Source of the DNA: an uncultured delta proteobacterium
Lineage (GTDB): Bacteria; Desulfobacterota; Binatia; UTPRO1
Length of the DNA: 64,000 nt
NCBI GenBank assembly: GCA_963774015.1
Contig: CAVZDH010000001.1
Coordinates: 451,064 to 515,063, forward strand
Direction of reading: 5' to 3'
Of the stretch, positions 1-59,008 are shown one piece after another. A model generated the notes under the pieces. The model was not told the origin of the DNA. It did no database searches and worked only from the letters and a program-made list of their open reading frames with translations. Position 1 is the stretch's first letter. Each line of letters starts with the position of its first letter. The position numbers and the translations under genes are program-made.

Positions 1-16
1 GGCTAGTCGGTCGGAC

Positions 17-1030: not shown

Positions 1031-1124
1031 CGACGCGGGTCTCGTCCGAGCTCGGCACGTCGGACGGCATCGGCACCCGCCATCGCTCGACAGCCCGGGC
1101 GGCGCGGTGTAGTCGCCGCGCGCC

Positions 1125-1447
1125 ATGCGTTGGTTGCGCCGGCTCGTGCCCGTCGCGCTCCTGCTCGCGTCGACGCTCCTCGCCTGGGGCGTGCTCGAGG
1201 CGGGTCTCCGCCTCGGCGGGTGGCGCATCGATCTCCAAAGCGAATGGATGCTCGGGGGACGTTTCGGACGCCACATCCCGACGCCTTCTTCGACGCGGGA
1301 CGCGATCCCGCCGAACGCGGCTTTCGCCACCTGAACGAGCGCGGCTACGCGCGGCTCGCCGTGCTGGTTGCGCGGCGACTGACGCACGACGGGACGCTCG
1401 TCGCCGCGGCGCGCATGCCCTGGACCATCACCCGACGGGACCGATAA
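1125..1447 (+). pseudogene. Possible SGNH/GDSL-hydrolase remnant (signal peptide in one frame, C-terminal block in another)
   Basis: Frame A gives signal-peptide-like MRWLRRLVPVALLLASTLLAWG; overlapping frame B gives GFRHLNERGYARLAVLVARRL, resembling the C-terminal His block of SGNH hydrolases; no intact ORF of normal length. Confidence 0.3.
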
Positions 1448-1458
1448 GAGACCGCGCG

Positions 1459-2679
1459 ATGCCGACGGATGCCGAGACCGTTCCCGCGGACGCCGGCGCG
1501 CAATCCGACTACGTGAGCGCGCTCGTCGCCACGTTTCTCGGCTGGACGCTCGATGCGTTCGACTTCTTCATCCTGGTCTTCGTCCTGCCGAGCGTCGCGC
1601 AGGACTTCGGCGTCGACGTGCCGGCGATCGCGCTCTCCATCACGGTCACGCTCGCGTTCCGTCCGATCGGCGCCTTCATCTTCGGGCTCATGGCCGATCG
1701 CTACGGTCGCCGCCTGCCGTTGATGATCGACCTCGTCTTCTATTCGGTCGTGGAGGTGCTGTCGGGGCTCGCCCCGAGCTACGCCTGGTTTCTCGTGCTG
1801 CGCGCGCTCTTCGGCATCGGCATGGGCGGCGAGTGGGGAGTGGGGGCCTCGCTCGCGATGGAGAAGGTGCCGCCGCGTTGGCGGGGCCTGCTCTCGGGTG
1901 TGCTCCAGGAGGGCTATGCCGTCGGCTACCTGCTCGCGGCGTGCTGCTACTTCCTCGTGTTTCCACGCTGGGGGTGGCGCCCCATGTTCTTCATCGGCGG
2001 CCTGCCGGCGCTCCTCGCGCTCTTCGTGCGCATGCGCGTGAAGGAGTCGACGGTCTGGGAGCAGACGCGGCATGCGAGCTGGTCGGCGCTCGGCCGCGCG
2101 ATCGTCGCCGAGTGGCGGCTCTTTCTCTACCTCACGGCGCTCATGACGATGATGGACTTCATCTCGCACGGCACGCAGGACATGTACCCGACCTTCCTCA
2201 AGATCGAGCGCGGCTTCGGCCCGCGGGACGTGGCGCTGATCGCGATCGTCTACAACGTCGGCGCGCTCATCGGCGGCATCGCCTTCGGGCATTTCTCGGA
2301 CCGCATCGGCCGCCGCCGCAGCATCGTGCTCGCCCTCGCGCTCGCGATGCTGGTGATCCCGCTCTGGGCCTACGCGCCGACCACCGCCGGCCTGGTCGCC
2401 GGTGCGTTCGTGATGCAGTTCATGGTGCAGGGCGCGTGGGGCGTGATTCCGGCGCACATCACCGAGCTCTCCCCCGATTCGGTGCGCGGCTTCCTTCCCG
2501 GATTCGCCTACCAATGCGGCGTGCTGCTCGCGAGCAGCGTCGCCTACGTCGAAGCGGTGTTCGCGACCCACACTTCGTACGCGAACGCGATGGCGCTCAC
2601 GGCCTTCACCGTCTTCACGCTCGGCGCGGCGGTCGTCGCGCTCGGGCGAGAGCGGCGGGGCGCGCGCTTCGGCGGGTGA
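1459..2679 (+). CDS. MFS transporter
   Basis: 406 aa, multiple hydrophobic helices, MFS signature GLMADRYGRRLPLM (loop 2-3 motif) and a second FGHFSDRIGRRRS repeat. Confidence 0.85.
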   Translation: MPTDAETVPADAGAQSDYVSALVATFLGWTLDAFDFFILVFVLPSVAQDFGVDVPAIALSITVTLAFRPIGAFIFGLMADRYGRRLPLMIDLVFYSVVEVLSGLAPSYAWFLVLRALFGIGMGGEWGVGASLAMEKVPPRWRGLLSGVLQEGYAVGYLLAACCYFLVFPRWGWRPMFFIGGLPALLALFVRMRVKESTVWEQTRHASWSALGRAIVAEWRLFLYLTALMTMMDFISHGTQDMYPTFLKIERGFGPRDVALIAIVYNVGALIGGIAFGHFSDRIGRRRSIVLALALAMLVIPLWAYAPTTAGLVAGAFVMQFMVQGAWGVIPAHITELSPDSVRGFLPGFAYQCGVLLASSVAYVEAVFATHTSYANAMALTAFTVFTLGAAVVALGRERRGARFGG

Positions 2680-2722
2680 GGTGCAGGATGGTCGAATGCT
2701 CGGGAATCGTCGCAATGAGCCT

Positions 2723-3697
2723 TCATTCCCCCTCGGGAGGCGGCGCCAGCGGATCGAGGACGACGGCGCTTCGCGACGTCGGCGGCAGCACCTCGGCGAG
2801 TCCGGCGCGGATCGCGGTGACGAGGGCGTCGGTCACCCGGCGGCGGAGATGGCTGCGAGCGGTGACGAGCCCGATCTCCCGCACGGGAGCGGGGGCTACC
2901 AGCGGTCGGACCTGGCGCTTGCGCCGGGCGGCGGGCAGGGCGCGCACCACGAGCTCGGGCAGGACGGTCGCGCCGAGCCCCTCGTCCACGAGTCGCACCA
3001 GGGTCTCGAAGCTGCCGCTCTCGAACTGGATGCGTGCCGGGCGTGGACGGGGCTCGGCGCCGCAGTACGAGAGGACTTGGCTTCGAAAGCAGTGTCCCTC
3101 GGGCATGATCCAGAGCTCGCGCTCGCTGAGCGCGGTCTGGCTCACGGTCTTCCTGCGCAGCAGCGGGTCGCCGAGCGGGAGATAGGCGAGCAAGCGCTCG
3201 AGCCCCAACACCTCCTCGCGGAGGCCGGCGACCCGGAGCGGTGTCGCGACGAGCCCGGCGTCGAGCGTGTCGGAACGAAGCCGTGCGATCGCCTCTTCGG
3301 TCTTGAGCTCCTCGATCGCGAGCTCGACGCGCGGATGGGCGGCGGCGAATCCGCCGACGAAGAGCGGCAGGACCGTCGGCGCGAGCGTCGGGATGACCCC
3401 GAGCCGAAAACGGCCCGCGGGCTCGTCGCCCTCGGCCACGACCTGTCCGAGGCGCTCGGTCTCGCGCAGCACCGTCCGCATCTGCGCGAGCGCCGGGACG
3501 CCTTCCGGCGTGACGAGGAGGGGCTTCTTGCTGCGGTCGAAGAGCACCAAGCCGAGCAGACCCTCGAGCTTGCCGATCTGCATGCTGAGGCCGGGCTGGG
3601 AGACGTGGCAGCGCTCGGCGGCCTGACGAAAGCTGTGGGCGTCGTCGACGGCGATCGCATACCGCATCTGGGCGAGGGTGACCTGGCTCAGATCCAT
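2723..3697 (-). CDS. oxyR: LysR-family transcriptional regulator, OxyR-like
   Basis: N-terminal LysR HTH (LAQMRYAIAVDDAHSFRQAAERCHVSQPGLSMQIGKLE); divergently adjacent to ahpC, the canonical oxyR context. Confidence 0.75.
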   Translation of the reverse strand: MDLSQVTLAQMRYAIAVDDAHSFRQAAERCHVSQPGLSMQIGKLEGLLGLVLFDRSKKPLLVTPEGVPALAQMRTVLRETERLGQVVAEGDEPAGRFRLGVIPTLAPTVLPLFVGGFAAAHPRVELAIEELKTEEAIARLRSDTLDAGLVATPLRVAGLREEVLGLERLLAYLPLGDPLLRRKTVSQTALSERELWIMPEGHCFRSQVLSYCGAEPRPRPARIQFESGSFETLVRLVDEGLGATVLPELVVRALPAARRKRQVRPLVAPAPVREIGLVTARSHLRRRVTDALVTAIRAGLAEVLPPTSRSAVVLDPLAPPPEGE

Positions 3698-3828
3698 GCC
3701 GTGAGCCTGACATAAGTTATACTTAAGTCAAATTAGAAACGTTCGATTCGACTTCTGGCGGTTCGGGTCGCATACAGCAGGGGCGGGCGCGGTGCCCGAC
3801 ATCGTCAACGACAGCCAAGGAGGAGCGC
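3698..3828. promoter_or_regulatory. Divergent oxyR/ahpC promoter region with AT-rich near-palindromic element and ahpC RBS
   Basis: AT-rich island ATAAGTTATACTTAAGTCAAATTAGAAA in an otherwise 70% GC context; AAGGAGGA 6 nt upstream of the ahpC ATG. Confidence 0.4.
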
Positions 3829-4392
3829 ATGTCTCTCATCAACACGACCATCAAACCGTTCAACGCCACGGCCTTCCACGACGGCAAGTTCGTCGAGGTC
3901 TCCGACGAGTCCATTCGCGGTCGCTGGAGCGTCTTCGTGTTCTACCCGGCCGATTTCACGTTCGTATGTCCCACCGAGCTCGAGGACCTGGCCGACCACT
4001 ACGCCGAGTTCACGAAGCTCGGCGTCGAGGTCTACGGCGTCTCGACCGACACGCACTTCGCGCACAAGGCCTGGCACGACACGTCGGAGGCCATCAAGAA
4101 GGTGCGCTATCCGCTGGTCGGCGACCCGACCGCCACCCTCGCCCGCAACTTCGACGTGCTGATCGAGGAGGAGGGGCTCGCGCTTCGCGGCAGCTTCGTC
4201 GTCGATCCCGACGGCAAGATCAAGCTTTGCGAGATCCACGACAACGGCATCGGCCGCGACGCGAAAGAGCTGCTCCGCAAGGTCAAGGCCGCCCAGTACG
4301 TGGCCTCGCATCCCGGCGAGGTCTGCCCCGCGAAGTGGCAAGAGGGCGCGAAGACGCTGAAACCGTCGCTCGACCTCGTCGGCAAGATCTAA
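3829..4392 (+). CDS. ahpC: Alkyl hydroperoxide reductase subunit C (2-Cys peroxiredoxin)
   Basis: 187 aa; peroxidatic Cys motif FTFVCPTEL and resolving Cys near C-terminus (EVCPAKW); near full-length similarity to AhpC. Confidence 0.95.
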
Positions 4393-4410
4393 GGGGAGGA
4401 CGCGACCGCC

Positions 4411-5043
4411 ATGCTCGACGACGCGATGAAGGCGCAGTTGACGCAGTACCTCACGCACCTGCGACGACCGATCCGGATCACGGCCGCGCTCGACGACGGC
4501 CCCGACTCCACGGCGCTGCGCGAGCTCCTCCGGGACGTCGCCGCGGCGTCGAGCATGGTGGAGGTCGTCGACGACGACGGCACGCCGGACGACGGGGCCG
4601 GCATCCGCCGTCCCTCGTTCGCGATCCATCTGCCGGGCGAGGCGGCGCGCGTGCGCTTCGCCGGCGTGCCGCTCGGGCACGAGCTCACGTCGCTCGTGCT
4701 CGCGCTGCTGCACGTCGGCGGACACCCGCCGAAGGTCGGCGCCGAGGTGCTGGCGCAAGTGGACGGCCTCGGCGGGACCTATCATTTCGAGACGTACTTC
4801 TCGCAGTCCTGTCAGAACTGTCCCGACGTGGTGCAGGCCTTGAACCTGATGGCCGTCCGCAATCCGAACGTCACGCACGTCGCGATCGACGGCGCGACCT
4901 TCCAGGCCGAGGTCGACGACGCGTCAGGTGATGGCGCCGGCGAGATCATCGTCGACGACCACGGGCGCACGAACGTCCCGGGCGTCTTTGCGGCCGGCGA
5001 CGTGACCACCGTGCACGACGAGTCCGCCGTAGCCTCGCAACCG
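4411..5043 (+). pseudogene. ahpF: ahpF remnant: AhpF N-terminal thioredoxin-like domain joined to the last ~30 residues, FAD/NAD domain deleted
   Basis: N-terminus matches AhpF (MLDDAMKAQLTQYL...RFAGVPLGHELTSLVLALL...SQSCQNCPDVVQALNLMAV...HVAIDGATFQAEVDD) then jumps to the AhpF C-terminal block GEIIVDDHGRTNVPGVFAAGDVTTV; ~300 aa of reductase core absent and downstream frame is nonsense. Confidence 0.7.
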
Positions 5044-5128
5044 GTCTGCGACGTCGCATGTGCTCCCCGGATTGACTGCGTGTGGGCCCTCGGCGAGAAC
5101 TCTCGGCGACGCAACGCCGAGAGGAATC

Positions 5129-6851
5129 ATGGGACGCGACATACTGCTTCGGGTGCTTGCCGTGGCGATGGCCTTCGGCGTGATGGTCGCTGGCGAATCC
5201 AAGGCGATCGCCTCGCCGATCTCGCTGTTGATCCCGCAGTCGACGGCGTTCACGGTGCTCGGTCACTCGTGCGGGGGGATCCAGGAGCAGGCCTTCGCGA
5301 CCGGCTTCGATGTGATGAGCGGCGATCCGACCGGTGACGTCTATCTGCAGACGCGTTGCGGTGGCAGCGGCAGGGGCGGCGGGTACCACACCACGACGTA
5401 CTCCGCCTGGGTCGCGGTGACCTGGGACTTCACGGGGGCGCCGGTGTCGCATGCGGTCCTCCCGTCCCCCCCGGCGGACGTCGACCCGAGCTTTTCGGCG
5501 TTCGATGGGTCCGGGAACGAGCTGTACGACGTGCTCAACGCGGTGAACGTGGCGCCGGCGAGCTGCGCGGTCGGCAACACGACCTATTGCACCTATCGAG
5601 CGTATCTCGTCCTGGCCTCCGGGTTCGTCGCCGCGCCGCGAGTGACGAGCGTGTCGGTGACCTCCGGGCCGGCCGCCGGTGGCACGAGCGTCGCCATCGC
5701 CGGAACCGGATTCACCGGCGCGACGGCGGTGACCTTCGGCGACGTCCCCGCGGCGGGCTTCACCGTGAACGCCGACACCTCCATCACGGCGGTCTCGCCG
5801 GCCGCGAGCGCAGGTACCGTCGACGTCGCGGTCATGACGGACGGTGGCACGAGCGCGGCGAGCGCGAGCGATCGGTTCACCTTCGTTGCCGCGCCCACCG
5901 TGTCGGGGATCGATCCCGACGGCGGTCCGGTCGACGGCGGGACTCTGGTGGCGATCAGCGGCGCGAGCTTCATCGACGTGATCGCGGTCTACTTCGGGGA
6001 GACGCCGGCGGGGTTCACCGTGAACGACGACGGGTCGATCACCGCGGTCTCACCGCCGGCCGAGGCTCCCGACACGGTCGAGGTCAGGGTCGTGACGGTC
6101 GGCGGAACGAGCGCCGATTCGGCGGCCTTCGCGTACACGACCTCCGCCCCGGGCTCGGTCTGCGGCGACGCGATCGTCGATCCCGGGGAGCAATGCGACG
6201 ACGGCGCCGCCGACGGTACGCCCGGCGATTGCTGCACCGCTACATGCACGTTCCGGACGGCGGGCACGGCCTGCGTCGACGACGGCAGCCTCTGTACCTC
6301 GGACGTCTGCGAGGGCGGTGCGTGCACGCACGTCGGCCGCGCCGGCGCTCGCGTGCACGCCGCCGGACGTCGCGGGGGGCGCATCCTTGCTCGTGCGTCG
6401 GCTGCGGTCGGGTCGGAACCAGGTGCAGCTCCTGTGGGGCAAGGGACCGACCGTTCCGCTCACGGCTTTCGGCGATCCCAGCGCCGGTGCGACGTTCCAG
6501 CTCTGCGTCTACGACGAGACGGGCTCCGGCACGCCGGCGCTCGCCGTGACGGGCTCGCCCTCGGAGAGCGGCGGCGGGCACTGGACGCGGACACGCACGC
6601 AATGGAGGTTCCGCAGTGCAACCGGGGCGCCCGACGGCATCACCGCGGTGACGCTCACGGGTGCGACGGTCCCGCTGAAGGCGAAGGTCCAGGTGAAAGC
6701 GACGACCGGACCACTGCCGGTGCCGCTTCCCTGGCGGCACGATCCGAGCGTCGTCGCGCAGCTGAGGACGTCGTCCGGTGCATGCTGGGGCGCCACCTTC
6801 TCGGCTCCGACGGTCGACTCGGCGACCGAGCTCAAGACGAAGTCGGATTGA
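5129..6851 (+). CDS. Secreted IPT/TIG-repeat protein with myxo-type cysteine-rich repeat and conserved C-terminal domain (frameshift near 6320-6350)
   Basis: Signal peptide MGRDILLRVLAVAMAFGVMVAG; three IPT/TIG-like repeats (VTSVSVTSGPAAGGTSVAIAGTGFTGA...); Cys-rich CGDAIVDPGEQCDDGAADGTPGDCCTATC; C-terminal block continues in a second frame (ORF 6318-6851) and is homologous to the C-terminus of the 53759-59008 protein. Confidence 0.6.
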
Positions 6852-7074
6852 GTGAAGCCCCTCGACGACTCGGATCGACGGTGTCCGATCCCGTCCTCCG
6901 CTCCCGCAAGTTCTTGCACGTCGCCCTTCCGGCGGGCGCAAACTCTGGCACGGTCGACCCACGATCGCGCCCGAGCGGCGACGCGCGGCACGGCCGTTTT
7001 CTGGCACTTCGCGTGCAACGGCCGCTTCGCATGAGCGCAACTCCCGTCTCCTGCTCGTTCCTCCGTACGCTCGC

Positions 7075-8178
7075 TTGACGACGCTCATGCTCACGGTGCT
7101 GGCGTTGTGGTTGCTGGCGGCCCTCGTCTATCGCTGGCTCGCCCTCGATGCCGTCGGCCGTCTTTGCACGCCGTCCGCTCCCGCCGTCGCCACGGCGGCG
7201 GCGCCGGCTCCATTCCAGGTGGTGGCGATTCGTCCGTTGCATGGGGCGGCGTCTTGGCTCGAGCCCTGTCTCGAGAGCCTCTGGCGCGAGGCCGCCGCGA
7301 CGCGTACGCCGCTCGTGATCGGTTGGACCGACAGCAACGATCCCGCGGGAGCGGTGGTCGCGTCGCTACAGGCGCGCGCCTCCTGGCCGGCCCTCGTGCG
7401 GGTCGGACCGGGCCCGTCCGGCGCCAATCCAAAGGTCGCGAACATGATCCAGATGACCTCGGGTGTCGCGGCCGACGTGTTGTTGCAGTCGGATGCCGAC
7501 GTGCGCGTCCCTTCGGGATACGTCGCGGCCATGACCGCGCCGTTCGCCGACCCGTCGGTCGGTCTCGCGACCTGCCCCTATCGCAGCGTTCCCGGGTCGG
7601 GAATCGCAAGCCGTCTCGACGCCTTGATGACCAACACGCACTTCCTGCCGAGTGCCTGCCTGGCGGTGCGCCTGGAAGGCCTCCATTTCGGCCTCGGCGC
7701 GACCATCGCCGTCCGTGCCTCGGCGCTGGAGCGCGCGGGGGGCCTCGCGGCCTTGCTCGGGACGCCCGCTGACGACTACATGCTTGCCCGCAACGTCGAG
7801 GCGGCGGGATCGCGGCTCGCGTGGGTGCCGATGGTGGTCGAGCATGCGGTCGACGAGCGGTCCTGGCGCGCCGTGCTGCGCCGTCACCTGCGATGGGCGC
7901 GGGTCACCCGAACCGTCCGGTTCTGGGGCTATCTCGGGCAGATGTTCACGCACGGCAGCGTGCCGATGCTGCTGGTGTCCGTGTACGTCGCGGCGACCGC
8001 GCGGCTCGCCGCCGTGTTCCTGCCGGTCGGCTGGTGGACGTTGCAGATGACGGCGCTCTGGCGTCAACGGTCGGCGCTCGGCTTGCGTGCCCGCGATCTC
8101 CCGCTCGTGCCACTCGCCGATCTCGGCGCGTTCCTCGTCTTCCTGGGGGGCATCGTCGGTCGCGCCGAGCCGAGCTGA
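7075..8178 (+). CDS. hpnI: Glycosyltransferase family 2, hopanoid-associated HpnI-like
   Basis: 367 aa membrane-anchored GT2-like protein (DADVRVPSGYV, ceramide-glucosyltransferase-like) immediately upstream of hpnJ/hpnK homologues. Confidence 0.65.
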   Translation: MTTLMLTVLALWLLAALVYRWLALDAVGRLCTPSAPAVATAAAPAPFQVVAIRPLHGAASWLEPCLESLWREAAATRTPLVIGWTDSNDPAGAVVASLQARASWPALVRVGPGPSGANPKVANMIQMTSGVAADVLLQSDADVRVPSGYVAAMTAPFADPSVGLATCPYRSVPGSGIASRLDALMTNTHFLPSACLAVRLEGLHFGLGATIAVRASALERAGGLAALLGTPADDYMLARNVEAAGSRLAWVPMVVEHAVDERSWRAVLRRHLRWARVTRTVRFWGYLGQMFTHGSVPMLLVSVYVAATARLAAVFLPVGWWTLQMTALWRQRSALGLRARDLPLVPLADLGAFLVFLGGIVGRAEPS

Positions 8179-8189
8179 CCGCGGTGACG

Positions 8190-9284
8190 ATGCCGGCCTT
8201 CGCCGTGGTGCTCTCGGCGCCGTACGGCACGCAACCGTCGGTGGCGGGCCTGACGCCGGCGGAGCGTACGCGCCGCGCGCTCGCGATGCAGCGGCACGAG
8301 GACATGCCGTCGGGCGACGATGCCCCGACGCTCTTCATCGCTGCCGATGCGCTCGTCGAACCCGATGCCATCGCGGCCCTGCTCGCAGCGGCGGCGCGAA
8401 AGGGGGCGGCGATCGCGGCGGGCGACGATCCCGAGCGTCCCGCGGTGATCGCGATGTCGGTGCGCGAGGCGCGGGCGCGTCGGTTGACGGCGACCGATCA
8501 GCTGGCCGGCTGCGCCGCGGCGCTTCGACGCGACGGCGGCGTCCAGATCGTCGACGTCGGCGAGGCGCTGTGTCTGCGGGTCGACCAACCCGCGACCGCG
8601 GCACGGGTGACCCGAATCCTCCTCGCGCGCCTCATCCGTCCCACCGACGGATTCCTCGCCCGCCACTTCGATCGCTACGTGTCGCGCCGTCTCTCCGTGC
8701 ATCTGGTCGCCCGCGGCGTTTCCCCCAACGTGGTGACCGTCGGGGCGACCTTGGTCGGGCTCGCGGGCGCCGGACTGCTTGCCGATGCCCATCGGCTGGG
8801 GCGCGTTCTCGGTGCGGCGCTCTTCGTGATCTCGACCATCTTGGACGGTTGCGACGGCGAGGTCGCCCGTCTCGCGCTCCGCTGTTCCGACTTCGGGCGA
8901 CGATTGGATCTCGTCGGCGACAACGTGGTCAACGCCGCGGTGTTCGCGGCGCTCGCCTACGCGCTCGCGCACGGCGCCGACGGCGGCATCTCGTCGGCGG
9001 TGGTGTGGGTCACGGCGGCGGGATTCGTGGTCGCGACCCTTACGGGATTCGTGTTCTCGAGCTGGCTCGCGCGCACTCGACGCGTCATCGAGCGCGATTG
9101 GTACGAGCGTCTCACGGGCCGCGACTTCGCGTACGTCATCCTCGTGCTCGCGATCGTCGGCCGCCTCGACTGGTTCGTGGGGCTGGCCGGCATCGGCTGT
9201 TTCGTCTTCGCCGCGGCCGTCCTGGCGTATTGGGCATGGCTGTCTCGGCAGCCGATGCCTCCCAGCGACCGCGGCGGTCAGTGA
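8190..9284 (+). CDS. CDP-alcohol phosphatidyltransferase family protein with N-terminal extension
   Basis: C-terminal half carries the CDP-OH transferase motif DGCDGEVARLALRCSDFGRRLDLVGD; N-terminal ~150 aa of unclear fold; ATG at 8190 just after the hpnI stop. Confidence 0.7.
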   Translation: MPAFAVVLSAPYGTQPSVAGLTPAERTRRALAMQRHEDMPSGDDAPTLFIAADALVEPDAIAALLAAAARKGAAIAAGDDPERPAVIAMSVREARARRLTATDQLAGCAAALRRDGGVQIVDVGEALCLRVDQPATAARVTRILLARLIRPTDGFLARHFDRYVSRRLSVHLVARGVSPNVVTVGATLVGLAGAGLLADAHRLGRVLGAALFVISTILDGCDGEVARLALRCSDFGRRLDLVGDNVVNAAVFAALAYALAHGADGGISSAVVWVTAAGFVVATLTGFVFSSWLARTRRVIERDWYERLTGRDFAYVILVLAIVGRLDWFVGLAGIGCFVFAAAVLAYWAWLSRQPMPPSDRGGQ

Positions 9285-10749
9285 AGGGAGGCGGCGGCGT
9301 CGGGGAGGGGCGTGTGCTCGGCGGTGCGCGGTTGGCGCCGTTGCGCCATGAAGGCGAAGAACTCCCGCGCCTCGCGCAACCGTCGGCGCATCACCTCGCG
9401 GTCGCGCAGCATGTCGCGCATGATGCGAAGGATCGGGCGCGGACGCAGATAGTAGGCGCGGTAGAAGCGCTCCAGCGCCTCGTGAATCTCGCCGCTCGGC
9501 AGGTCGCCGTAGGAGAGCACGGCCTCCTGAATGCCGCCGCCCTGGACGAGATCGGCCGACGCCGACCCCGCAGCCAACCCCGCTCGCGGGCCTGACGGTA
9601 GAGCTCCGTTCCCGGGTAGGGTGCGGCGAGCGAGACCTGCAGGCTGTAGGGATCGATCGTTTTCGCGAAGTCGATCGTCTGCTCGATCGTCTGTCGCGTC
9701 TCTCCCGGCAGGCCGAGAATGAAGGTCCCGTGGATCAGGATGCCGAGCTTCCGGCAGTCCCGCGCGAATTGATGCGCGCGATCGATCCGGGTCCCCTTCT
9801 TGATGTTGTTCAGGATCTCCTGACTCCCGGTCTCGAAGCCCACGAGCAGCAGGCGGAGTCCGTTCTCACGCATCACGCGCAGCGTCTCGAACGGCACGTT
9901 CGCCTTGGCGTTGCACGACCACGTCATGCCGAGCTTGCCGAGACCTCGGGCGATCGCCTCGGCGCGCGGGCGATCGTCGGTGAACGTGTCGTCGTCGAAG
10001 AAGAACTCACGTACCTGCGGGAAGAGACGTCGTGCGTGCGCCATCTCGGCGACGACGTGCTCGACGCTCCGGGTCCGGTAGGTGTGCCCGGCGATGGTCT
10101 GCGGCCAGAGGCAGAAGCTGCACCGGCTGCGGCATCCCCGGCCGGTATAGAGCGACACGTAGGGATGCAGGAGGTAGCCGATGTCGTAGTGGTCGACGGT
10201 GAGATGGCGTGCGTAGACGTCGGTAACGAAGGGAAAGGCGTCGAGGTCGTGAATGGGCGGCGCCGCCGGCGTCCGCCGCACGCGGCCGTCGGGCGTCCGG
10301 TGGGCGACCCCCGCGACCTCGGACGCCGGCCGCCCCGCTGCCACGTCGCGAATCGCGTAGTCGAACTCGCCGGTGGTCACGAAATCCACGGCGGGCGCCA
10401 GGGCCAACGTCTCCTCCGGAAGCACCATCGTGTGCGCGCCGACGAACGCGATCTGCACGTCGGGATAGGTCTCCTTCAAGCGCGCCGCGAAGCGACTGTC
10501 GGGTACGACCGAGGGTGTGGAGGTGTGGATCACGACCAGGTCGTGGCCGGCGGCGCGCGCGATCACCTGCTCGACGGTGAGGTCGTCGGGAGGCGCGTCG
10601 ATCAGCGTGGAGTCGGGTACCAATGCGGCGGCTTGCGCGAGCCACGTCGGGTACCAGAAGGAGCGCACCTCGCGCCGCGCCTGGTAGCGCGCGCCGGCGC
10701 CGCCGTCGAAGCCTTCGAACGAAGGAGGATTCAGGTAGAGCGTCCGCAC
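9278..10749 (-). CDS. hpnJ: Hopanoid biosynthesis-associated radical SAM protein HpnJ (frameshift near C-terminus, about 9560-9600)
   Basis: N-terminus MRTLYLNPPSFEGFDGGAGARYQARREV and radical-SAM region GRGCRSRCSFCLWPQ typical of HpnJ; conserved C-terminal block (GGIQEAVLSYGDLPSGEIHEALERFYRAYYLRPR) lies in a different frame (ORF 9278-9577). Confidence 0.8.
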
Positions 10750-10773
10750 CGCGACATCCCGTCCGGGACGGGA

Positions 10774-11814: not shown

Positions 11815-11895
11815 TCCAGGCAGAGTTCACGGCGTGCGGGTCGGCGTCAACCCGGCATGGGGGCAGGTGCCGATCGCCCGTCTCTCGTGGCCCGC

Positions 11896-12753: not shown

Positions 12754-12935
12754 GAGGCGCGAGGTTATCGACCGCCGACGTGGGCGCCGCAAGCACGTGG
12801 CTCCGTATTGTCACTCGGCTGGCGCGCGGGATAAACGGGGACGCTTCATCCATGGGTCGTCGGCGAAGGTCACTCATACGCGCACGCGGGCGCGGTTTGC
12901 GCGTCGGTCGAGGCGACGGCCGGGGTCCGACGTGG

Positions 12936-14282: not shown

Positions 14283-14292
14283 GGAGCGCCGC

Positions 14293-43110: not shown

Positions 43111-45533
<2,423 letters not shown>

Positions 45534-45757
45534 GCGGGTGCCTCCTCCAAAAACTCGAGGCGGGAAGGGAGGACAGCCCGACCAGCCTCTAAGGTTTCGA
45601 GTGGTTGGCCGCCCGGACGAGAAGGCAAGGACGCCGTGACGTCTGCTTCCCGCGAGCGCTTCTGCGCACTCCCGACGAACTTGCCGGCCGCCCGAGGACG
45701 GGCCGGCATGAAAACCGGCGTTGTCTAGCATCGGACGGGGGGAATTGCGAGAGCGCG

Positions 45758-46377: not shown

Positions 46378-46482
46378 TTTGATTCCGGGCGCCCGATTCC
46401 GACCCGCGCAACCGCCGACGACGTGTGCTAGCTTCCGCGACGATGCCGAAGGGCCCCCCGAGGCGAGAAGCGCCCCGCTGAC

Positions 46483-47108: not shown

Positions 47109-47128
47109 TCCGGTCTGTGCAACGATCG

Positions 47129-53758: not shown

Positions 53759-56700
53759 TCAGTCGGCCTTGGCGGCGAACGTCGTCGCGTCCTGCTTCTT
53801 GAAAGGCGCGCTGAAGACGGACTCCCAGCACGTGCCGGTCGCGTGGTTCACGAGCTGCACGCGCACGGGCGAGAGCAAGGCGGCGAGGCTCGGCGGCATG
53901 TCGAGCCGGTCCCCCTTGCCCTTCACCTGGATCTTGGCCTTGCCGGCGACGAGACCTTCGCGGAGCTGGAGCTGCGCGACGCCGTCCGGCGTGAGGTCGC
54001 CGTCCTTGTAGTCGAAACCCGTCTTCTTCTCGCGCCAGCACGCCTTGCCCTTGGCGCAGAAGCCGCCGGGCGGCACGATCGCCGTCGTGACGAGCCCGGT
54101 CGCGTCGTAGAGGCAGAGCTCGTAGCGGTCGGTGGTGAGCGGCTGCCCGAAATCGGCCTTCGTCGTGACGGCGCCCCTCGCCCACTTCCAGGCGAGCTGG
54201 TCCTTGGCGTCGGGGCTCTTGTCCTTGAGGAGCAGGCTCGCCTTGCCGGCGACGGCCGGCAAGCGGCAGCCGGCGAGCGGCGCCGGCGCGCACTCGCGGA
54301 GACAATCGGAGGAGCAGCCGTCGCCGCTCGCGGTGTTACCGTCGTCGCATTCCTCGGCGAGCTCGAGCACGCCGTCGCCGCAGGTCTGCACGTCGCAGGC
54401 GTCGCCCGTGCCGTCGCCGTCGGTGTCGCTTTGCGAGGGGTCGAAGGCCTCGGGACAATCGTCCTGCGCGTCCGGGACGCCGTCGTCGTCGGCATCGGCG
54501 GGCGTCGTCACGGCGGTCACGAGGGTCGGGAGGCAGCTCGCCCCGCTCGGGCAGTCGGGCGGCGTCGTCACCTCGGGACGACACGTCGCCGGCTGCCGCA
54601 GGATGCAGCGCCGGCAGTCGACGTCGGTCGCGCAGGCGAGCCCGGTGTAGCGCGTGCAGGTTCCGGTCGCGGTCGCGCAGGTGTCGAGGTCGCAGAAGGA
54701 GCCCGCGCCGCAGTCGGCGTCGACACCGCAGGGGATCGCGAGGTCGCAACGCCCGGCGGGGGCGAGGAAGACGCGCGTGTCCTCGGGCACGCGGAGCGGA
54801 TCCTGCCCGCCCGGGTCGACACGGCCGATCACCGTCACCGTCTCGGTGCAGAAGTCGTAGACCTGAATCACGAGGTCGCCGGGAAAGCCCTCGACGCTCA
54901 GGTCCTGGCCGCCCTGCTCGGCCTCGAGCGTCAGGAACGTCACCTTACTGCCGTCGATCTTGTAGGGTTCGCGCGGATCGCAGGCAGCGAGCCGGCACGG
55001 CGTCACCGCCTGGCGCACGTTCTTGAGCTCGCCGCTCACGGCGTCGTAGACCTGCAGCACGTCGTCGAGCGTATCGACGTCGGCCGGCACGCCGACGCCG
55101 CCGTTCAGGTTGGTGGCGTTCTCGGCCGCTTCGTTGGCGCTGAACGCCACGAGCTGCCGCGCGCCGCAGGTGGTCACCGCGGGCGCACCCAGCACGAAGT
55201 CGTCGGCCGCGACCCGGACGCCGGCCGTGCAGCTCGGCGCTCCGGGGCCGGTCGGCGTGCAGGCGAGCGGCGTGCCGGCGAGCGAGTACACCTGCAGCAC
55301 GCGGTCGGTCGCGTCGACGTCGGCGTTCAGCAGCGCGCCGCCCTGCACCGCCTCCGACGTGAGGAAGCCGACGACGTCACCGTTGATCGCGAGCGCCTCG
55401 CCGGCTTGCCCGGTGCTGATCCACGACCCCGCCGTCGCACCCGGGAGGGCATTCACCGCGACGACGTCGTCGCCGGCGTCGCCGTCGCCGTTCAGATCCG
55501 TTCCGCCGTCCGGGCATCCCGTGGTCACGGCGCCCGCCGTTCCGCACTCCGAGACGAGCGCCGCGAGCCCGCTCGTCGACGCCGCGACCGCCGTCGCCGC
55601 GCGCGCGAGGTTCACGACTGATCCGCCCTCCCAGAGCTGCACCACGTCGTCCGTCGTGTCGGCGTCCGGCGGGTTCAACGACCCGCCCGGACACGCGCCG
55701 GTCCCGACCGCCGACTCGGGCCGCAGGAACACCGCCGTCCCGTCGCTCGCCACCGCGACGTCGTCGGCGGGACAGAGCGTCGTCGTCGTCGCGCTCGCGG
55801 AATCGAGCACCTCGAGGACGGTGTCGTCGAGCGCGCCGTCGGCGAAGAGCGCATCGGCGCCGAGGGGGTCGGCGGGGTCAGTGCCGTGGACGAAGACGTC
55901 CCGGAAGCCGTTGGTGTCGTTGCCGACCCCGACGAGATTCGTCGCGTCGCTCAGGAACGCCACCTCGCGGGCGTCGCGCGACAGCCCGAGGAAGCCGTTC
56001 ACCGTACCACCTCCGCCGGTGGCCTCCTCGCCGGCGAGGCCGACGTTCACGCGCGTGGTCACGCCGCTCTCGCGGTCGGAGAGGAAGATGTCGCCGGCCC
56101 CGTTCGTGTCGAGCCCGGCGCCGAGGAGATTCGTCGCGCTGCTGTAGAACGCGACGTACCGCCCGTCCGGCGAGATCGTGACGTCGGTCGGCGGAGCGTC
56201 CGGGCTCGTCCCGCCGGGACCGCGTCCGACGAGCGTCGTCACCCCCGTCAAACGATCGTGGACGAAAGCATCGGTCGCGCCGTTGACGTCTGCTTCTGCT
56301 GTGAGATTGCTCGCGCCGCTCTCGAACGCGACGAAGCGACCGTCGGCGGACATCGTGACGCGAGAGAAGCCGGATGCGCCATTGCTCTCGATGCCGCCGG
56401 GTCCGATGCTGACCCGCTCGTTCGCACCGGTCTGCCGGTCACGCACGAAGACGTCCGAGACGCCGTTGGTGTCGAGACCCGGGTCGAGGAGGTTCGAAGC
56501 GGTGCTCGTGAAGGCGACGTAGCGCCCGTCGGCGGAGATGGCGGGCCACTCACCGGATCCGCTCGGCGGCTCCGCGCCGCCTGGACCGACGTCGACCCGC
56601 TCCGTCGTGCCGAGCAAGCGGTCGCGCACGAAGACGTCGCGGTTGCCGTTGGTGTCGCCACCCGGCCCGAGCAGATTGGTCGCATCGGACGCGAAGACCA

Positions 56701-59008
56701 CGAAGCGACCGTCGGCAGAGAGCGCCGGAATTACCGAGTGGCCGTCGCCTTCGAGGCCGCCGGGCCCGACGCTCACGCGCTCGGTCACGCCCGTCCCGAG
56801 ATCGTGCACGAAGACGTCGATGAAGCCGTTGGTGTCGCCCCCCGGCCCGAGCAGGTTGGTCGCATCGCTTGCGAAGGCGACGTGCTGCCCGTCGGCCGAG
56901 ATGGCGACGAACCCCGAACCTACGAACGGTGTGCCGTTGGCCTCGAGGCCGCCCGGGCCCACGCTCACGCGTGTCGTCGTGCCCGCCACGCGATCCCGGA
57001 CGAAGACGTCCTCGGCTCCGTTCGTATCGCCGCCCGGTCCGAGGAGATTCGCCGACGTGCTGGAGAAGGCGACGTACCGACCGTCTGCCGAAATGCCGAG
57101 GCCTGCGTTCGTCGAGCCGCCGCCCGCGCTCGCCTCGACGCCGCCCGGACCGAGGTTCGCGCGCCCGGTCGTCTGCTGCGCCGCTCCCGTCTCCGGCCGC
57201 CGGTAGAATACCTCGCCGCTCGCCACCATCAGGCCCTGCCCGTTGATCCGCGGCGCCGGGTCGACGACGCGCGGCGGGCTCAGGCTCGCGGTCACCTCGC
57301 CGGCGCCGAGCTTGAAGACGCGCAGGATCGCGTCCGCGCGGTCGTAGTCGCCGTTCTCGTCGCAGTAGTTCTGCGCTGCCTCCGACTCGAGGAAGGCGAG
57401 GACGTCGTTCTCGACCGCGACGGCGGGGAACGAGAACACGCCGTCCTGCACGCGCACGGCGGCGCGGCCCTCGGGCGTACCGGCGAGGCCGCACGCGGGG
57501 AGCGGCGCACCGCCGACCGCGAAGCCGTCGGGTGCGCCGAGCGGCTGCACGACGCCGGTCGCGCGGTCGCGGAGGATCGCGACTGCATCCAGCAGATCCG
57601 TGTCGCCGTTCCGCTGCACGCCGTCGATCGCCTCCTCGACGACGAACGAGCGAAGGTCCGGGCTCGCGGCGAGGCCGTCGAGCGGGACCGGCGTGTTGGC
57701 CTGGATGCTGTAGCCGACGCAGGCGTTGAAAGCCCCCGGGCAGTCGCCCGGGCCGCTGCACGCTTGATAGGGCGTGAGCTGGCAACGACGCGGGGCCGCG
57801 CGGTCGAGGTAGAGGCCGCCGGCCGTGCTCGCGCCGGCAAGGTCGTAGAGCGCGCCGCAGGGCGCGGCACCGCCGCAGTCGCCGTCGGTCGCGCAGGGGA
57901 GCGCCGGGTTGCCGACGCAGCTCGTCGCGCACGTTCCGCCCGGACAATCGAGGATGGTCGCGCAGCGCGCGCCCGCGTTCGCGCCGGCGCTGCACGTACC
58001 GTGGTGGCGCGCGACGCGGAGGATCGTGTAGGGCGCGTCGGTCGAGCCGAAGAAGCGCACGAAGTCGGAGGTGCTCGCCGATTGATCGAGCTGGGGCTCG
58101 AAGATCGGTCCGAGACGCTTCCCTTCGGGCGTGAAGCTCGTGAGGAACACTTGCGCCGGGATCTGCACCGGGAAGCCCACCGGCGCGCTGATCGCGGTGC
58201 TGAGGAGGCGCGGCACCGGTACGCGCGCTTGCGGCACGAGGATGCCTTGCCAGGCGATCGGCATCAGCACGTTGCCGCTCGCGTCGAGCGCGGCGCGGAG
58301 TTCCGGCGCCGTCGGGTTGCAGGGCGGGTCGAGGAAGCAGTCGCGCTGGTAGTCGTTCGGCGGCGGCAGCGCGGTGAAGCTCGCGAACTCGGGGTTCGGG
58401 ATCCCCGTGCCGCAGCTGCCGTCGTTCACGAAGAAGTCGTCGATGCAGGCGACCAGCCCGCTCTGCGCGGCGCACGGCACCGCCGCCAGGTTGCAGGGGA
58501 GCGGATCGGTGCGGCGCGTGACGGCGATCCGCGCCGGACCCGCGAGTGTGCGGTCGTCGCTCGGGGTGCCGACCGCGTCGTCGGTGTCGGGGAAGCGGAA
58601 GCCGAGCTCCACGTGCCCTTCGCGCTCGACCGTCGCGAGCCCCGCGGTCGCGTCGGCGACGCACGCGAGCATCGCGGGCGGGAGGTCGCAGGCCGCGAGC
58701 TGGTGTGCGAGCGCGTCGCAGTCCGCGTCGGGCGAGAGCACGCGGAGCGCGTTCGTGCCCGATCCCGGGAACGCCACCGTCACGACGTAGTCGCCGGTCG
58801 TGAGCGAGAGGCCGGGCGACCCGGCGGCGTCACAGGAGCGGAGCGCCACCGCGACGCGCTCGCCGGGCGCCGCGTAGGGCCGGTCGGTCGTCCCGAGGAC
58901 GCCGTTGAAGGAGGCAGTGGTGCCAGGGATCAAGTTGCACCCGGCCTGCACGATGCGCGGCAGGGCGAGCAGCAGCAGGATCGTCAAGAGCGAACGGGCG
59001 GCCCGCAT
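53759..59008 (-). CDS. Giant secreted protein (1749 aa): TolB-like beta-propeller repeats, thrombospondin type-3 calcium-binding repeats, myxo-type cysteine-rich repeat and conserved C-terminal domain
   Basis: Signal peptide MRAARSLLTILLLLALPRIVQAG; 9 or more tandem ~53-aa repeats (ISADGRYVAFSSTSANLLGPGGDTNGAEDVFVRDRVAGTTTRVSVGPGG); TSP3-like DADDDGVPDAQDDCPEAFDPSQSDTDGDGTGDACD; Cys-rich CGDGVLELAEECDDGNTASGDGCSSDC; C-terminal domain shared with the 5129-6851 protein. Confidence 0.85.
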   Translation of the reverse strand: MRAARSLLTILLLLALPRIVQAGCNLIPGTTASFNGVLGTTDRPYAAPGERVAVALRSCDAAGSPGLSLTTGDYVVTVAFPGSGTNALRVLSPDADCDALAHQLAACDLPPAMLACVADATAGLATVEREGHVELGFRFPDTDDAVGTPSDDRTLAGPARIAVTRRTDPLPCNLAAVPCAAQSGLVACIDDFFVNDGSCGTGIPNPEFASFTALPPPNDYQRDCFLDPPCNPTAPELRAALDASGNVLMPIAWQGILVPQARVPVPRLLSTAISAPVGFPVQIPAQVFLTSFTPEGKRLGPIFEPQLDQSASTSDFVRFFGSTDAPYTILRVARHHGTCSAGANAGARCATILDCPGGTCATSCVGNPALPCATDGDCGGAAPCGALYDLAGASTAGGLYLDRAAPRRCQLTPYQACSGPGDCPGAFNACVGYSIQANTPVPLDGLAASPDLRSFVVEEAIDGVQRNGDTDLLDAVAILRDRATGVVQPLGAPDGFAVGGAPLPACGLAGTPEGRAAVRVQDGVFSFPAVAVENDVLAFLESEAAQNYCDENGDYDRADAILRVFKLGAGEVTASLSPPRVVDPAPRINGQGLMVASGEVFYRRPETGAAQQTTGRANLGPGGVEASAGGGSTNAGLGISADGRYVAFSSTSANLLGPGGDTNGAEDVFVRDRVAGTTTRVSVGPGGLEANGTPFVGSGFVAISADGQHVAFASDATNLLGPGGDTNGFIDVFVHDLGTGVTERVSVGPGGLEGDGHSVIPALSADGRFVVFASDATNLLGPGGDTNGNRDVFVRDRLLGTTERVDVGPGGAEPPSGSGEWPAISADGRYVAFTSTASNLLDPGLDTNGVSDVFVRDRQTGANERVSIGPGGIESNGASGFSRVTMSADGRFVAFESGASNLTAEADVNGATDAFVHDRLTGVTTLVGRGPGGTSPDAPPTDVTISPDGRYVAFYSSATNLLGAGLDTNGAGDIFLSDRESGVTTRVNVGLAGEEATGGGGTVNGFLGLSRDAREVAFLSDATNLVGVGNDTNGFRDVFVHGTDPADPLGADALFADGALDDTVLEVLDSASATTTTLCPADDVAVASDGTAVFLRPESAVGTGACPGGSLNPPDADTTDDVVQLWEGGSVVNLARAATAVAASTSGLAALVSECGTAGAVTTGCPDGGTDLNGDGDAGDDVVAVNALPGATAGSWISTGQAGEALAINGDVVGFLTSEAVQGGALLNADVDATDRVLQVYSLAGTPLACTPTGPGAPSCTAGVRVAADDFVLGAPAVTTCGARQLVAFSANEAAENATNLNGGVGVPADVDTLDDVLQVYDAVSGELKNVRQAVTPCRLAACDPREPYKIDGSKVTFLTLEAEQGGQDLSVEGFPGDLVIQVYDFCTETVTVIGRVDPGGQDPLRVPEDTRVFLAPAGRCDLAIPCGVDADCGAGSFCDLDTCATATGTCTRYTGLACATDVDCRRCILRQPATCRPEVTTPPDCPSGASCLPTLVTAVTTPADADDDGVPDAQDDCPEAFDPSQSDTDGDGTGDACDVQTCGDGVLELAEECDDGNTASGDGCSSDCLRECAPAPLAGCRLPAVAGKASLLLKDKSPDAKDQLAWKWARGAVTTKADFGQPLTTDRYELCLYDATGLVTTAIVPPGGFCAKGKACWREKKTGFDYKDGDLTPDGVAQLQLREGLVAGKAKIQVKGKGDRLDMPPSLAALLSPVRVQLVNHATGTCWESVFSAPFKKQDATTFAAKAD

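What the first reader, a model, noticed from the sequence alone, without database searches (positions are those of the whole stretch)
6318..6851. Conserved ~150-aa C-terminal domain shared by two unrelated secreted proteins, each preceded by a myxo-type cysteine-rich repeat
The C-terminus of the TIG-repeat protein (…APALACTPPDVAGGASLLVRRL…QLCVYDETG…KAKVQVKATTGPLPVPLPW…CWGATFSAPTVDSATELKTKSD) aligns with the C-terminus of the giant protein at 53759-54250 (…APAPLAGCRLPAVAGKASLLLKD…ELCLYDATG…KAKIQVKGKGDRLDMPPS…CWESVFSAPFKKQDATTFAAKAD), including conserved Cys and Trp positions. Both follow a CxxxxDxGEECDDGN-type repeat. A shared C-terminal module on otherwise different secreted proteins suggests a common sorting, anchoring or processing signal.
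Basis: seen in the sequence. Interest (0 to 1): 0.5.

Follow-up and report, generated by a model that had tools for sequence, protein, structure and literature searches.

The report
Unnamed shared tail domain on secreted proteins
Two unrelated exported proteins in this window end in the same ~170-residue, disulfide-bonded, lysine-rich beta-sandwich, which belongs to a very large unnamed domain family of uncultured Binatia-like bacteria and most likely localises or tethers proteins outside the cell; in this assembly one of the two copies is cut off from its protein by a single-base frameshift.

Summary
The similarity is real. BLASTP of window 6336-6848(+) against 53762-54250(-) gives E=3e-22, and a profile-profile comparison gives 99.9% probability, E=8e-31. 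There are only two copies in the window.

- The domain ends the protein in 145 of the 148 best hits, usually with K-[A/S]-D.
- It sits behind highly diverse passengers that carry Sec signal peptides: propellers, S8 and M12B proteases, TIG, FG-GAP, and "choice-of-anchor" families.
- At least 14 loci lie on one 7-Mb MAG contig. All genomic hits are MAGs labelled Binatia or "delta proteobacterium".
- It has six conserved Cys and 6.7% Lys, against 1% Lys in the acidic passengers.
- Rare N-terminal, tandem and stand-alone copies exist.

Most likely it is a modular localisation or anchoring domain rather than a strict cleavable signal. No dedicated machinery was found nearby, and the function is untested.

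The parts
5129..6331 (+). Upstream part (frame 2) of the split TIG-repeat gene. It holds the signal peptide (about 5129-5215), an N-terminal region, two IPT/TIG repeats (about 5636-6150) and a cysteine-rich region (6158-6331).
   Evidence: Pfam TIG E=4.3e-24. NCBIfam CoaZ_rpt_PGGG E=1.1e-11 and TIGR02232 at 19.9 bits, residues 344-374. Collinear with orthologue P0075 at 73% identity. The signal peptide was judged by eye from MGRDILLRVLAVAMAFGVMVAGESKAIAS.
6332..6332 (+). Frameshift site. One surplus base separates frame 2 (...GACTH) from frame 0 (SAAPALACTPPDV...).
   Evidence: Sequence and ORF frames. In the alignment with P0075, P0005 and P0002 the two pieces abut with the same H-to-C spacing as intact homologues. 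No slippery motif is visible. A true mutation cannot be told apart from an assembly indel.
6323..6851 (+). Copy A of the shared domain, of the minority subtype that lacks the Cys pair of the central loop. It runs from the first conserved Cys (6323, frame 2), across the frameshift, to the K-S-D stop codon (6849-6851).
   Evidence: AF2 model of 6336-6848: pLDDT 91.9, pTM 0.88, 12 strands.
53759..54292 (-). Copy B of the shared domain, of the majority subtype with six Cys. It is the exact C-terminus of the giant protein and ends K-A-D before the stop (53759-53761).
   Evidence: AF2 model of 53762-54301: pLDDT 96.7, pTM 0.91.
54293..54388 (-). Cysteine-rich acidic repeat (CGDGVLELAEECDDGN...) immediately upstream of copy B.
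   Evidence: TIGR02232 E=1.3e-10, 40.9 bits against a cutoff of 20.8, residues 1541-1572 of the query that starts at 59008. DUF4215 scores 25.6 bits.
54389..59008 (-). Passenger part of the giant protein, with a signal peptide at about 58943-59008, PD40/TolB-like repeats and a thrombospondin-type-3-like acidic stretch. The listed ORF starts at ATG 59293, but the likely start is M96 at 59008.
   Evidence: Translation. Pfam PD40 E=1.2e-14. Orthologue P0048 (1904 aa) starts at the equivalent signal peptide.

Best explanation
The shared stretch is an autonomous extracytoplasmic domain of about 170 residues. It is an 11-12-stranded beta-sandwich held by up to three disulfides and is unusually rich in lysine. 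In uncultured Binatia-like bacteria it is fused, nearly always at the extreme C-terminus and through a cysteine-rich acidic repeat or a Pro/Thr linker, to dozens of unrelated Sec-exported proteins per genome.

The most likely mechanism is as follows. After Sec export and disulfide formation, the domain acts as a common localisation module that holds the acidic, lysine-poor passenger at one shared target. That target is probably an anionic component of the cell envelope or matrix, bound non-covalently through the lysine-rich surface, with the linker serving as a stalk.

What is shown: homology, family size, position, passenger diversity, signal peptides, Cys and Lys conservation, and a confident fold with no close relative.

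What is inferred: the anchoring function, the nature of the target, and non-covalent binding.

In this window copy B is intact. Copy A is disconnected from its TIG-repeat passenger by a one-base frameshift, which may be a pseudogene or an assembly error.
For: - **Homology:**
- **No named family:** Pfam and NCBIfam give 0 hits at E<=0.1 on the window domains. In the list of the 25 most frequent families among the 77 scanned members, every entry is a passenger-type family; hit positions were not printed.
- **Family size:** 7,770 clusters at E<=1e-3, 6,461 at E<=1e-10 and 2,640 at E<=1e-30.
- **Position:** the domain ends within 5 aa of the C-terminus in 145 of the 148 top representatives, and in 72 of 75 ORFs in genomic loci. 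The last three residues are mostly KAD or KSD.
- **Passengers:** lactonase, SGL and DUF5122 propellers, disintegrin, reprolysin M12B, peptidase S8, beta-helix, Lcl_C, FG-GAP/VCBS, cadherin-like, TIG and PD40, plus NCBIfam choice_anch_Q, HAF repeat, delta-60 and the NF038122 metalloprotease.
- **Copy number:** at least 14 loci on one 7.0-Mb contig. At least 3 genes lie on the window's own source contig: A, B and P0032.
- **Export signals:** 78 of the 148 best hits have a hydrophobic signal-peptide-like N-terminus (110 of the 148 begin with Met); by eye these end in AxA-type sites. A loose lipobox pattern matches only 12.
- **Cysteines:** six Cys columns are conserved at 92-100%.
- **Charge:** Lys is 6.7% in the domain against 0.97% in passengers. 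Median pI is 7.4 against 4.3. Lys alternates along strands, as in GKAKIQVKGKG.
- **Modularity:** N-terminal copies (P0056, P0118), tandem copies (P0041-43) and signal-peptide-plus-domain-only proteins (P0037-39) show it is a self-sufficient module.
- **Stalks:** long Pro/Thr stalks lie directly before the domain, for example in P0048 and P0056.
- **Fold:** pLDDT 91.9 and 96.7.
Against: - No binding target, receptor or experiment exists.
- No conserved neighbour or machinery was found.
- The net charge of the domain varies widely (10th-90th percentile -9 to +7), so a purely electrostatic mechanism is not universal.
- The 98% C-terminal bias with a conserved terminal K-[A/S]-D would fit a C-terminal recognition signal equally well.
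- I could not inspect model coordinates, so the 'lysine face' is inferred from sequence periodicity only.
- Taxon labels are those given by the submitters of the MAGs and were not verified.
Confidence: 0.4

Rival explanations
1. It is a C-terminal secretion or sorting domain, working like the T9SS C-terminal domain. The folded domain would be recognised in the periplasm by a dedicated, still unidentified outer-membrane translocon or sortase-like peptidase. It would then be removed or used for covalent attachment.
For: - The domain is at the extreme C-terminus in 98% of proteins, with a conserved terminal K-[A/S]-D.
- There are many diverse cargo proteins per genome, with Sec signal peptides.
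- Disulfides imply a folded periplasmic intermediate.
- Passengers include 'choice-of-anchor' families, and families that in Bacteroidota are T9SS cargo.
Against: - Copies occur at the N-terminus, internally in tandem, and followed by linkers. Proteins with only a signal peptide and the domain also exist.
- There is no sequence match to Por_Secre_tail or TIGR04183/TIGR04131.
- No machinery lies next to either gene in the scanned parts of the window (2-17304 and 39922-63999), and no neighbour recurs across the fetched loci.
Confidence: 0.25
2. It is a substrate- or ligand-binding module (lectin- or CBM-like) that targets enzymes and adhesins to an environmental polymer or particle rather than to the producer's own envelope.
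For: - It has a modular beta-sandwich architecture with Pro/Thr linkers and variable position, including tandem copies, as in CBMs.
Against: - Passengers are mostly not carbohydrate-active enzymes. They are propellers, proteases and adhesin-type repeats.
- There is no hit to any CBM or lectin Pfam family.
- No aromatic platform motif is evident apart from buried-looking W/Y residues.
Confidence: 0.15
3. It is a protein-protein docking or oligomerisation module (dockerin-like). The lysine-rich domain would bind an acidic partner, for example the cysteine-rich acidic repeats carried by other secreted proteins, and so assemble an extracellular protein network.
For: - The lysine-rich domain contrasts with the strongly acidic passengers and acidic repeats.
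- It co-occurs frequently with TIGR02232 repeats (28 of 77 members).
- Some proteins carry two copies.
Against: This is entirely inferential. No partner has been identified, and the acidic repeats sit in cis in many proteins, which would favour self-binding.
Confidence: 0.1
4. The similarity is a chance or compositional artefact of out-of-frame translation in high-GC DNA, or ORF 6318-6851 is a separate small gene unrelated to the TIG gene.
For: The window is 68.7% GC and full of spurious ORFs. The source annotation calls a 142-aa stand-alone ORF, P0001.
Against: - E=3e-22 pairwise and E=8e-31 profile-profile.
- There are thousands of homologues and confident fold predictions.
- Intact orthologues (P0075, P0005, P0002) join the TIG part and the domain in one ORF.
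- A stand-alone ORF would lack a signal peptide and the first conserved Cys.
Confidence: 0.01

Closest known systems
T9SS C-terminal domain (Por_Secre_tail; TIGR04183 type A, TIGR04131 type B) of Bacteroidota
   Same: It is a folded beta-sandwich at the extreme C-terminus of many diverse Sec-exported proteins per genome, and it is lineage-restricted. It occupies the same position on passenger families that NCBIfam calls 'choice-of-anchor'.
Non-covalent surface-anchoring modules (SLH domains, dockerins, cell-wall-binding repeats)
   Same: It is a modular domain that is mostly terminal but tolerant of position. It is joined by Pro/Thr linkers, shared by dozens of different secreted proteins in one genome, and sometimes duplicated.
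   Different: The fold and sequence are unrelated: it is all-beta and disulfide-bonded, whereas SLH is helical and dockerin is a Ca-binding helical pair. The organisms are apparently diderm, and no cohesin-like or polymer partner is known.
PEP-CTERM, MYXO-CTERM and GlyGly-CTERM sorting signals
   Same: These are lineage-specific C-terminal tags on many secreted proteins. They are often found on the same passenger families (HAF repeat, NF038122 metalloprotease, choice-of-anchor domains, cysteine-rich acidic repeats).
   Different: Those are tripartite signals of about 25 aa with a transmembrane helix and a basic tail, processed by exosortase, myxosortase or rhombosortase. Here there is a hydrophilic 170-aa globular domain that ends in K-[A/S]-D and has no transmembrane segment.
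Carbohydrate-binding modules and bacterial pre-peptidase C-terminal (PPC) domains
   Same: They are beta-sandwich accessory domains appended to secreted enzymes through linkers.
   Different: There is no Pfam match. The passengers are not predominantly glycoside hydrolases or peptidases. The domain is larger and has a distinct Cys and Lys pattern.

Membership tests
T9SS C-terminal sorting domain (PF18962 / TIGR04183 / TIGR04131) | Significant match to the family HMMs | tested here: not met
   Pfam and NCBIfam scans of both window domains at E<=0.1 returned 0 families. The family does not appear among the 25 most frequent families for the 77 scanned members.
T9SS C-terminal sorting domain (PF18962 / TIGR04183 / TIGR04131) | Exclusively at the extreme C-terminus of cargo | tested here: inconclusive
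   145 of 148 and 72 of 75 copies are C-terminal, but N-terminal (P0056, P0118), tandem (P0041-43) and tailed (P0170) copies exist.
T9SS C-terminal sorting domain (PF18962 / TIGR04183 / TIGR04131) | Ig-like sandwich of about 70-100 aa and 7 strands, structurally similar to solved C-terminal domains | tested here: not met
T9SS C-terminal sorting domain (PF18962 / TIGR04183 / TIGR04131) | T9SS machinery (SprA, PorV, PorU etc.) present in the same genome | not tested
   Whole genomes were not available to scan. The Pfam-scanned parts of the window (2-17304 and 39922-63999) show nothing of the kind.
PEP-CTERM / MYXO-CTERM / GlyGly-CTERM type signals | Short C-terminal motif followed by a transmembrane helix and a basic cluster | tested here: not met
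   Both window proteins and most family members end in a hydrophilic strand...FKxK[A/S]D-stop. No hydrophobic segment is present and there is no NCBIfam hit.
Cysteine-rich acidic repeat (TIGR02232 / DUF4215), for the element preceding the domain | HMM score above the curated cutoff | tested here: met
   Giant protein: TIGR02232 at 40.9 bits against a cutoff of 20.8. TIG protein: 19.9 bits, marginally below the cutoff, and DUF4215 at 14.4 bits against 27. Membership is therefore firm for copy B and borderline for copy A.
IPT/TIG domain (PF01833), for the passenger of copy A | HMM score above the gathering threshold | tested here: met
   84.8 bits against 20.9, in two stretches.
Carbohydrate-binding modules / lectins | Match to a CBM or lectin family by sequence, or a clear fold match | tested here: not met
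Outer-membrane beta-barrel / autotransporter translocator | Amphipathic strands of 9 or more residues, a C-terminal aromatic beta-signal, no disulfides, and a barrel fold match | tested here: not met
Any solved structure (PDB) | Sequence-profile or fold match | tested here: not met

The most novel reading that the evidence does not exclude
The domain is the address tag of a previously unrecognised, lineage-specific protein display or secretion system of Binatia-like bacteria. It would be a functional analogue of the T9SS C-terminal domain or of cohesin-dockerin, built on an unrelated fold. A dedicated receptor or translocon, still to be found, would handle dozens of cargo proteins per cell.
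Probability: 0.25. Interest if true: 0.75.

Novelty: new variant of a known kind. Interest (0 to 1): 0.5.

Why it matters
Binatia-like bacteria are abundant in soils and sediments, are uncultured, and their cell-surface biology is unknown. This is a domain family with thousands of sequence clusters, no name in Pfam or NCBIfam, no solved relative and a very confident predicted fold. It marks a large part of these bacteria's exported proteome: proteases, propeller enzymes and adhesin-like giants.

Naming the domain would immediately improve annotation of these MAGs, and it defines their probable surface or extracellular protein set. If a cognate receptor or machinery exists, it would be a new way for diderm bacteria to display proteins.

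For this window specifically, the TIG-repeat gene should be treated as frameshifted. That may be a pseudogene or an assembly indel, but it is not two separate genes.

Tried and rejected
- **AFDB50 fold search:** the library was unavailable, so no UniProt-annotated structural neighbours could be obtained.
- **The search for related loci with the broad alignment A2:** this failed because no conserved 7-10-column stretch existed. I repeated it with the subfamily alignment A4, so the genome scan is biased towards the majority subtype.
- **The look-up of encoding contigs for P0032 and P0001:** neither is on record, so the source record of the window was not identified.
- **Neighbour clustering over 80 loci:** the largest clusters were antisense or low-complexity spurious ORFs. 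No genuine conserved partner emerged. This was a crude gene call based on GC3 only.
- **Context of two small domain-bearing proteins:** their neighbours are unrelated to each other.
- **Literature searches:** Binatota + secretion, Binatia + C-terminal domain, choice-of-anchor + sorting, and DUF4215/TIGR02232 found no description of this domain.
- **Rejected, programmed frameshift:** there is no slippery heptamer at 6326-6340, and orthologues are continuous.
- **Rejected, outer-membrane barrel or autotransporter domain:** see the membership test.
- **Rejected, lipoprotein anchoring as the general rule:** signal peptides mostly look like type I (AxA-type ends, by eye) and only 12 of 78 match a loose lipobox pattern.
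- **Rejected, obligatory unit of cysteine-rich repeat plus domain:** only 28 of 77 members have the repeat.
Full report
**Observation.**
BLASTP gives E=3e-22, with 31% identity over 163 residues and only 4 gaps.
- A tblastn search of each domain against the whole window finds the other copy at E about 1e-20 and 1e-18, and nothing else below E=0.4. The window therefore holds exactly two copies.
- A profile-profile comparison of the two subfamilies they belong to gives 99.85% probability, E=8.1e-31 over 165 columns.
- The regions upstream of the domain are unrelated (best E=4.4).
- A cysteine-rich acidic repeat precedes both copies. It is a firm TIGR02232 hit in the giant protein (40.9 bits, cutoff 20.8). 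In the TIG protein it falls marginally below threshold (19.9 bits), although CGDAIVDPGEQCDDG is plain to see.

- The TIG-repeat ORF (start 5129, frame 2) and the domain ORF (frame 0) are in different frames.
- Aligned with an intact 577-aa orthologue (P0075) and with P0005 and P0002, the two window pieces are collinear (73% and 68% identity). They abut at 6331/6333, leaving a single surplus base at 6332. The spacing between the flanking His and Cys is the same as in the intact proteins.
- The frameshift lies inside the domain, between its first two conserved cysteines.
- As assembled, the TIG protein would run on into about 250 codons of out-of-frame sequence. The domain ORF, annotated in the source as a 142-aa protein (P0001), would lack a signal peptide.
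- There is no slippery site, and orthologues are continuous, so programmed frameshifting is unlikely.
- I cannot tell a true pseudogene from an assembly indel. The window also holds an H+-PPase gene broken into at least six frame fragments and an internally deleted ahpF. Long genes such as the 5.5-kb giant ORF are nevertheless intact.

**The family.**
- Word-indexed searches gave only 16 and 24 homologues, unnamed or called 'cysteine-rich repeat protein'. One of them comes from 'Candidatus Binatia'.
- An exhaustive HMMER search with a 19-sequence profile found 7,770 clusters at 50% identity with E<=1e-3, 6,461 at E<=1e-10 and 2,640 at E<=1e-30. Protein lengths range from 167 to 1,904 aa.
- In 145 of the 148 best hits the domain ends within five residues of the C-terminus. 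The last three residues are KAD (47), KSD (41), RSD (10) or RAD (7), among others. In ORFs read directly from genomic loci the figure is 72 of 75.
- Exceptions show that the domain is autonomous. P0056 and P0118 have a signal peptide, then the domain, then a Pro/Thr linker and another domain. P0041-P0043 carry two copies. P0037-39 are essentially signal peptide plus domain.
- Passenger regions are extremely varied. They include lactonase, SGL and DUF5122 propellers, disintegrin, reprolysin-type M12B and S8 peptidases, beta-helix, Lcl_C, Vgb lyase, BNR/sortilin, FG-GAP/VCBS, cadherin-like, TIG and PD40.
- NCBIfam adds choice_anch_Q, HAF repeat, delta-60 repeat and the NF038122 metalloprotease. 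The window's TIG region hits the 'choice-of-anchor Z' repeat. From my own knowledge of NCBIfam naming, 'choice-of-anchor' families are those whose members carry different C-terminal anchoring signals in different lineages. I could not find a citable definition in the library.
- Of the 148 best hits, 78 have a hydrophobic signal-peptide-like N-terminus (110 begin with Met); by eye these end in AxA-type sites, and only 12 match a loose lipobox pattern.
- The list of the 25 most frequent Pfam and NCBIfam families among the 77 scanned members contains only passenger-type families; hit positions were not printed.

**Distribution.**
- A scan of one genome per GTDB species, using two peptide patterns from the majority subtype, found 102 loci. 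All 80 kept loci are in MAGs. Their labels are Candidatus Binatia/Binatota, 'uncultured delta proteobacterium' (MFD isolates), Polyangiaceae, Thermodesulfobacteriota and Desulfurellales, plus one Granulosicoccus bin on a 3-kb contig.
- One 7.0-Mb contig alone contributes 14 loci.
- These labels are the submitters' own and were not verified.
- The window's giant gene has a 73%-identical (nucleotide) orthologue in that MAG. A third paralogue, P0032, lies on the window's own 1.47-Mb source contig.

**Structure and composition.**
- AlphaFold2 models are very confident. Copy A has pLDDT 91.9 and pTM 0.88. Copy B has pLDDT 96.7 and pTM 0.91. Both are all-beta with 11-12 strands.
- Foldseek gives nothing at E<=1e-3. 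A profile search of PDB sequences gives nothing at E<=10.
- Across 206 aligned domains the consensus is C...P..GCR.P...GKA.L.LKD...D.KD.L.WKW.KG.aT..aDFG.P...t.Y.LC.YD...PaGG.C.GKPCW...Gf.YKDK..TPDG...LK.G...GKAKI.VKGKG..L..P...PVTVQL....G.CWEA.YS.P.KN....FKDK.D.
- Six Cys columns are conserved at 92-100%. Sixteen columns are at least 50% Lys.
- Copy A belongs to the minority that lacks the central Cys pair.
- Lys makes up 6.7% of the domain but 0.97% of passenger regions. Median pI is 7.4 for the domain against 4.3 for passengers.
- Along strands the lysines alternate (K-A-K-I-Q-V-K-G-K), which would place them on one face.

**Context.**
- Downstream of copy A lie a GT21 glycosyltransferase, a CDP-alcohol phosphatidyltransferase, a B12-radical SAM enzyme, an LPG-synthase-type membrane protein and YdjC. 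This is a hopanoid-type lipid cluster. An OEP/HlyD/MacB efflux set follows.
- On the lower-coordinate side of copy B, beyond the 3' end of the giant gene, lie TrmO, a group II intron reverse transcriptase, IS1-like and IS200 transposases and the broken H+-PPase. On the higher-coordinate side, past the giant gene's start, lie a 922-aa protein with no Pfam match and a beta-helix protein.
- The Pfam scans covered 2-17304 and 39922-63999; the middle of the window (17.3-39.9 kb) was not scanned. Within the scanned parts there is no sortase, exosortase, rhombosortase or T9SS-like gene.
- Crude clustering of neighbours over 80 loci, and two annotated contexts, showed no recurrent partner. This is expected for dispersed paralogues.

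**Interpretation.**
- What is shown: this is a large, unnamed, structurally distinct extracytoplasmic domain that terminates a big and heterogeneous set of Sec-exported proteins in one uncultured lineage.
- What is inferred: it provides those proteins with a common localisation.
- I favour a retained, non-covalent anchoring or binding module (confidence 0.4) for four reasons. First, the domain tolerates N-terminal, tandem and stand-alone arrangements. Second, it is separated from the passenger by stalk-like Pro/Thr linkers or cysteine-rich repeats. Third, it is selectively lysine-rich on otherwise lysine-depleted acidic proteins. Fourth, the passengers are not biased towards one substrate class.
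- A T9SS-CTD-like secretion signal (0.25) explains the 98% C-terminal bias and the conserved terminus, but not the exceptions.
- A CBM-like environmental binding module (0.15) and a dockerin-like protein-docking module (0.10) remain open.
- Chance or an ORF artefact is excluded.

**Comparison with known systems and novelty.**
- Functionally, the nearest analogues are the T9SS C-terminal domain and non-covalent anchoring modules such as SLH, dockerin and cell-wall-binding repeats.
- The domain is a member of none of them. HMM membership, size and fold were all tested and not met.
- Short transmembrane-type signals (PEP-CTERM, MYXO-CTERM) are excluded by the hydrophilic terminus.
- I found no description in Pfam (2025 copy), NCBIfam 20.0, the PDB or the searchable literature.
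- I therefore rate it a new variant of a known kind: a lineage-specific terminal localisation module built on an unrelated fold.
- Interest is moderate (0.5). The family is large and clean, and it defines the probable surface or exoproteome of an abundant uncultured group. However, lineage-specific C-terminal modules are a familiar theme, and the mechanism is unproven.

Noticed in passing
window 4411-5337 (+): The ahpF gene downstream of ahpC (3829-4392) looks internally deleted. The N-terminal AhpF domain runs directly into the C-terminal '[25 protein letters not shown]' motif, so about 290 residues are missing. The frame is then lost just before the TIG gene starts at 5129. A divergent LysR/OxyR-like regulator lies at 2723-3697 (-). 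This was judged from the translation and my own knowledge of AhpF.
   Followed up: partly
window 42737-45731 (-): A membrane H+-pyrophosphatase gene is broken into at least six pieces in different frames, with Pfam PF03030 hits on two of the fragments. It is either a decaying pseudogene next to mobile elements or a locally poor assembly. This bears on whether the frameshift at 6332 is real.
   Followed up: partly
window 45820-51127 (+): A cluster of mobile elements: an IS200-type Y1 transposase (45820-46284), an IS1-like DDE transposase (47869-48966) and a group II intron-type reverse transcriptase (49562-51127).
   Followed up: no
window 6856-12810: A hopanoid-associated-looking lipid cluster sits directly after copy A: GT21 glycosyltransferase, CDP-alcohol phosphatidyltransferase, B12-binding radical SAM, LPG_synthase_TM and YdjC. 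An OEP/HlyD/MacB-FtsX efflux set follows at 12756-17304.
   Followed up: no
window 39922-42651 (-), 60105-62870 (-) and 62638-63999 (+): Further large, probably secreted proteins lack the shared domain. One is a 910-aa SdrD_B/DUF7450 repeat protein. Another is a 922-aa protein with no Pfam hit, directly upstream of the giant gene on the same strand. The third is a beta-helix protein that runs off the window.
   Followed up: no
window 6320-6361 (+): The two conserved Cys codons that flank the frameshift each sit in a copy of the 10-nt direct repeat GCGTGCACGC, at 6320 and 6351. This could be a context for a slippage or polishing error. It was not tested.
   Followed up: no
L081 3712-5742 and L082 (whole locus): Related ENA long-contig assemblies show similar fragmentation. 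In L081 a Big_5 gene is followed, after a gap, by a 200-aa domain-only ORF. In L082 an amino-oxidase is split into three called genes. This suggests frequent indels in this type of assembly.
   Followed up: no
window 59009-59293 (-): The listed ATG start of the giant ORF adds 95 residues upstream of a canonical signal peptide (MRAARSLLTILLLLALPRIVQA). Orthologue P0048 begins near the equivalent signal peptide, so the true start is probably at 59008.
   Followed up: partly
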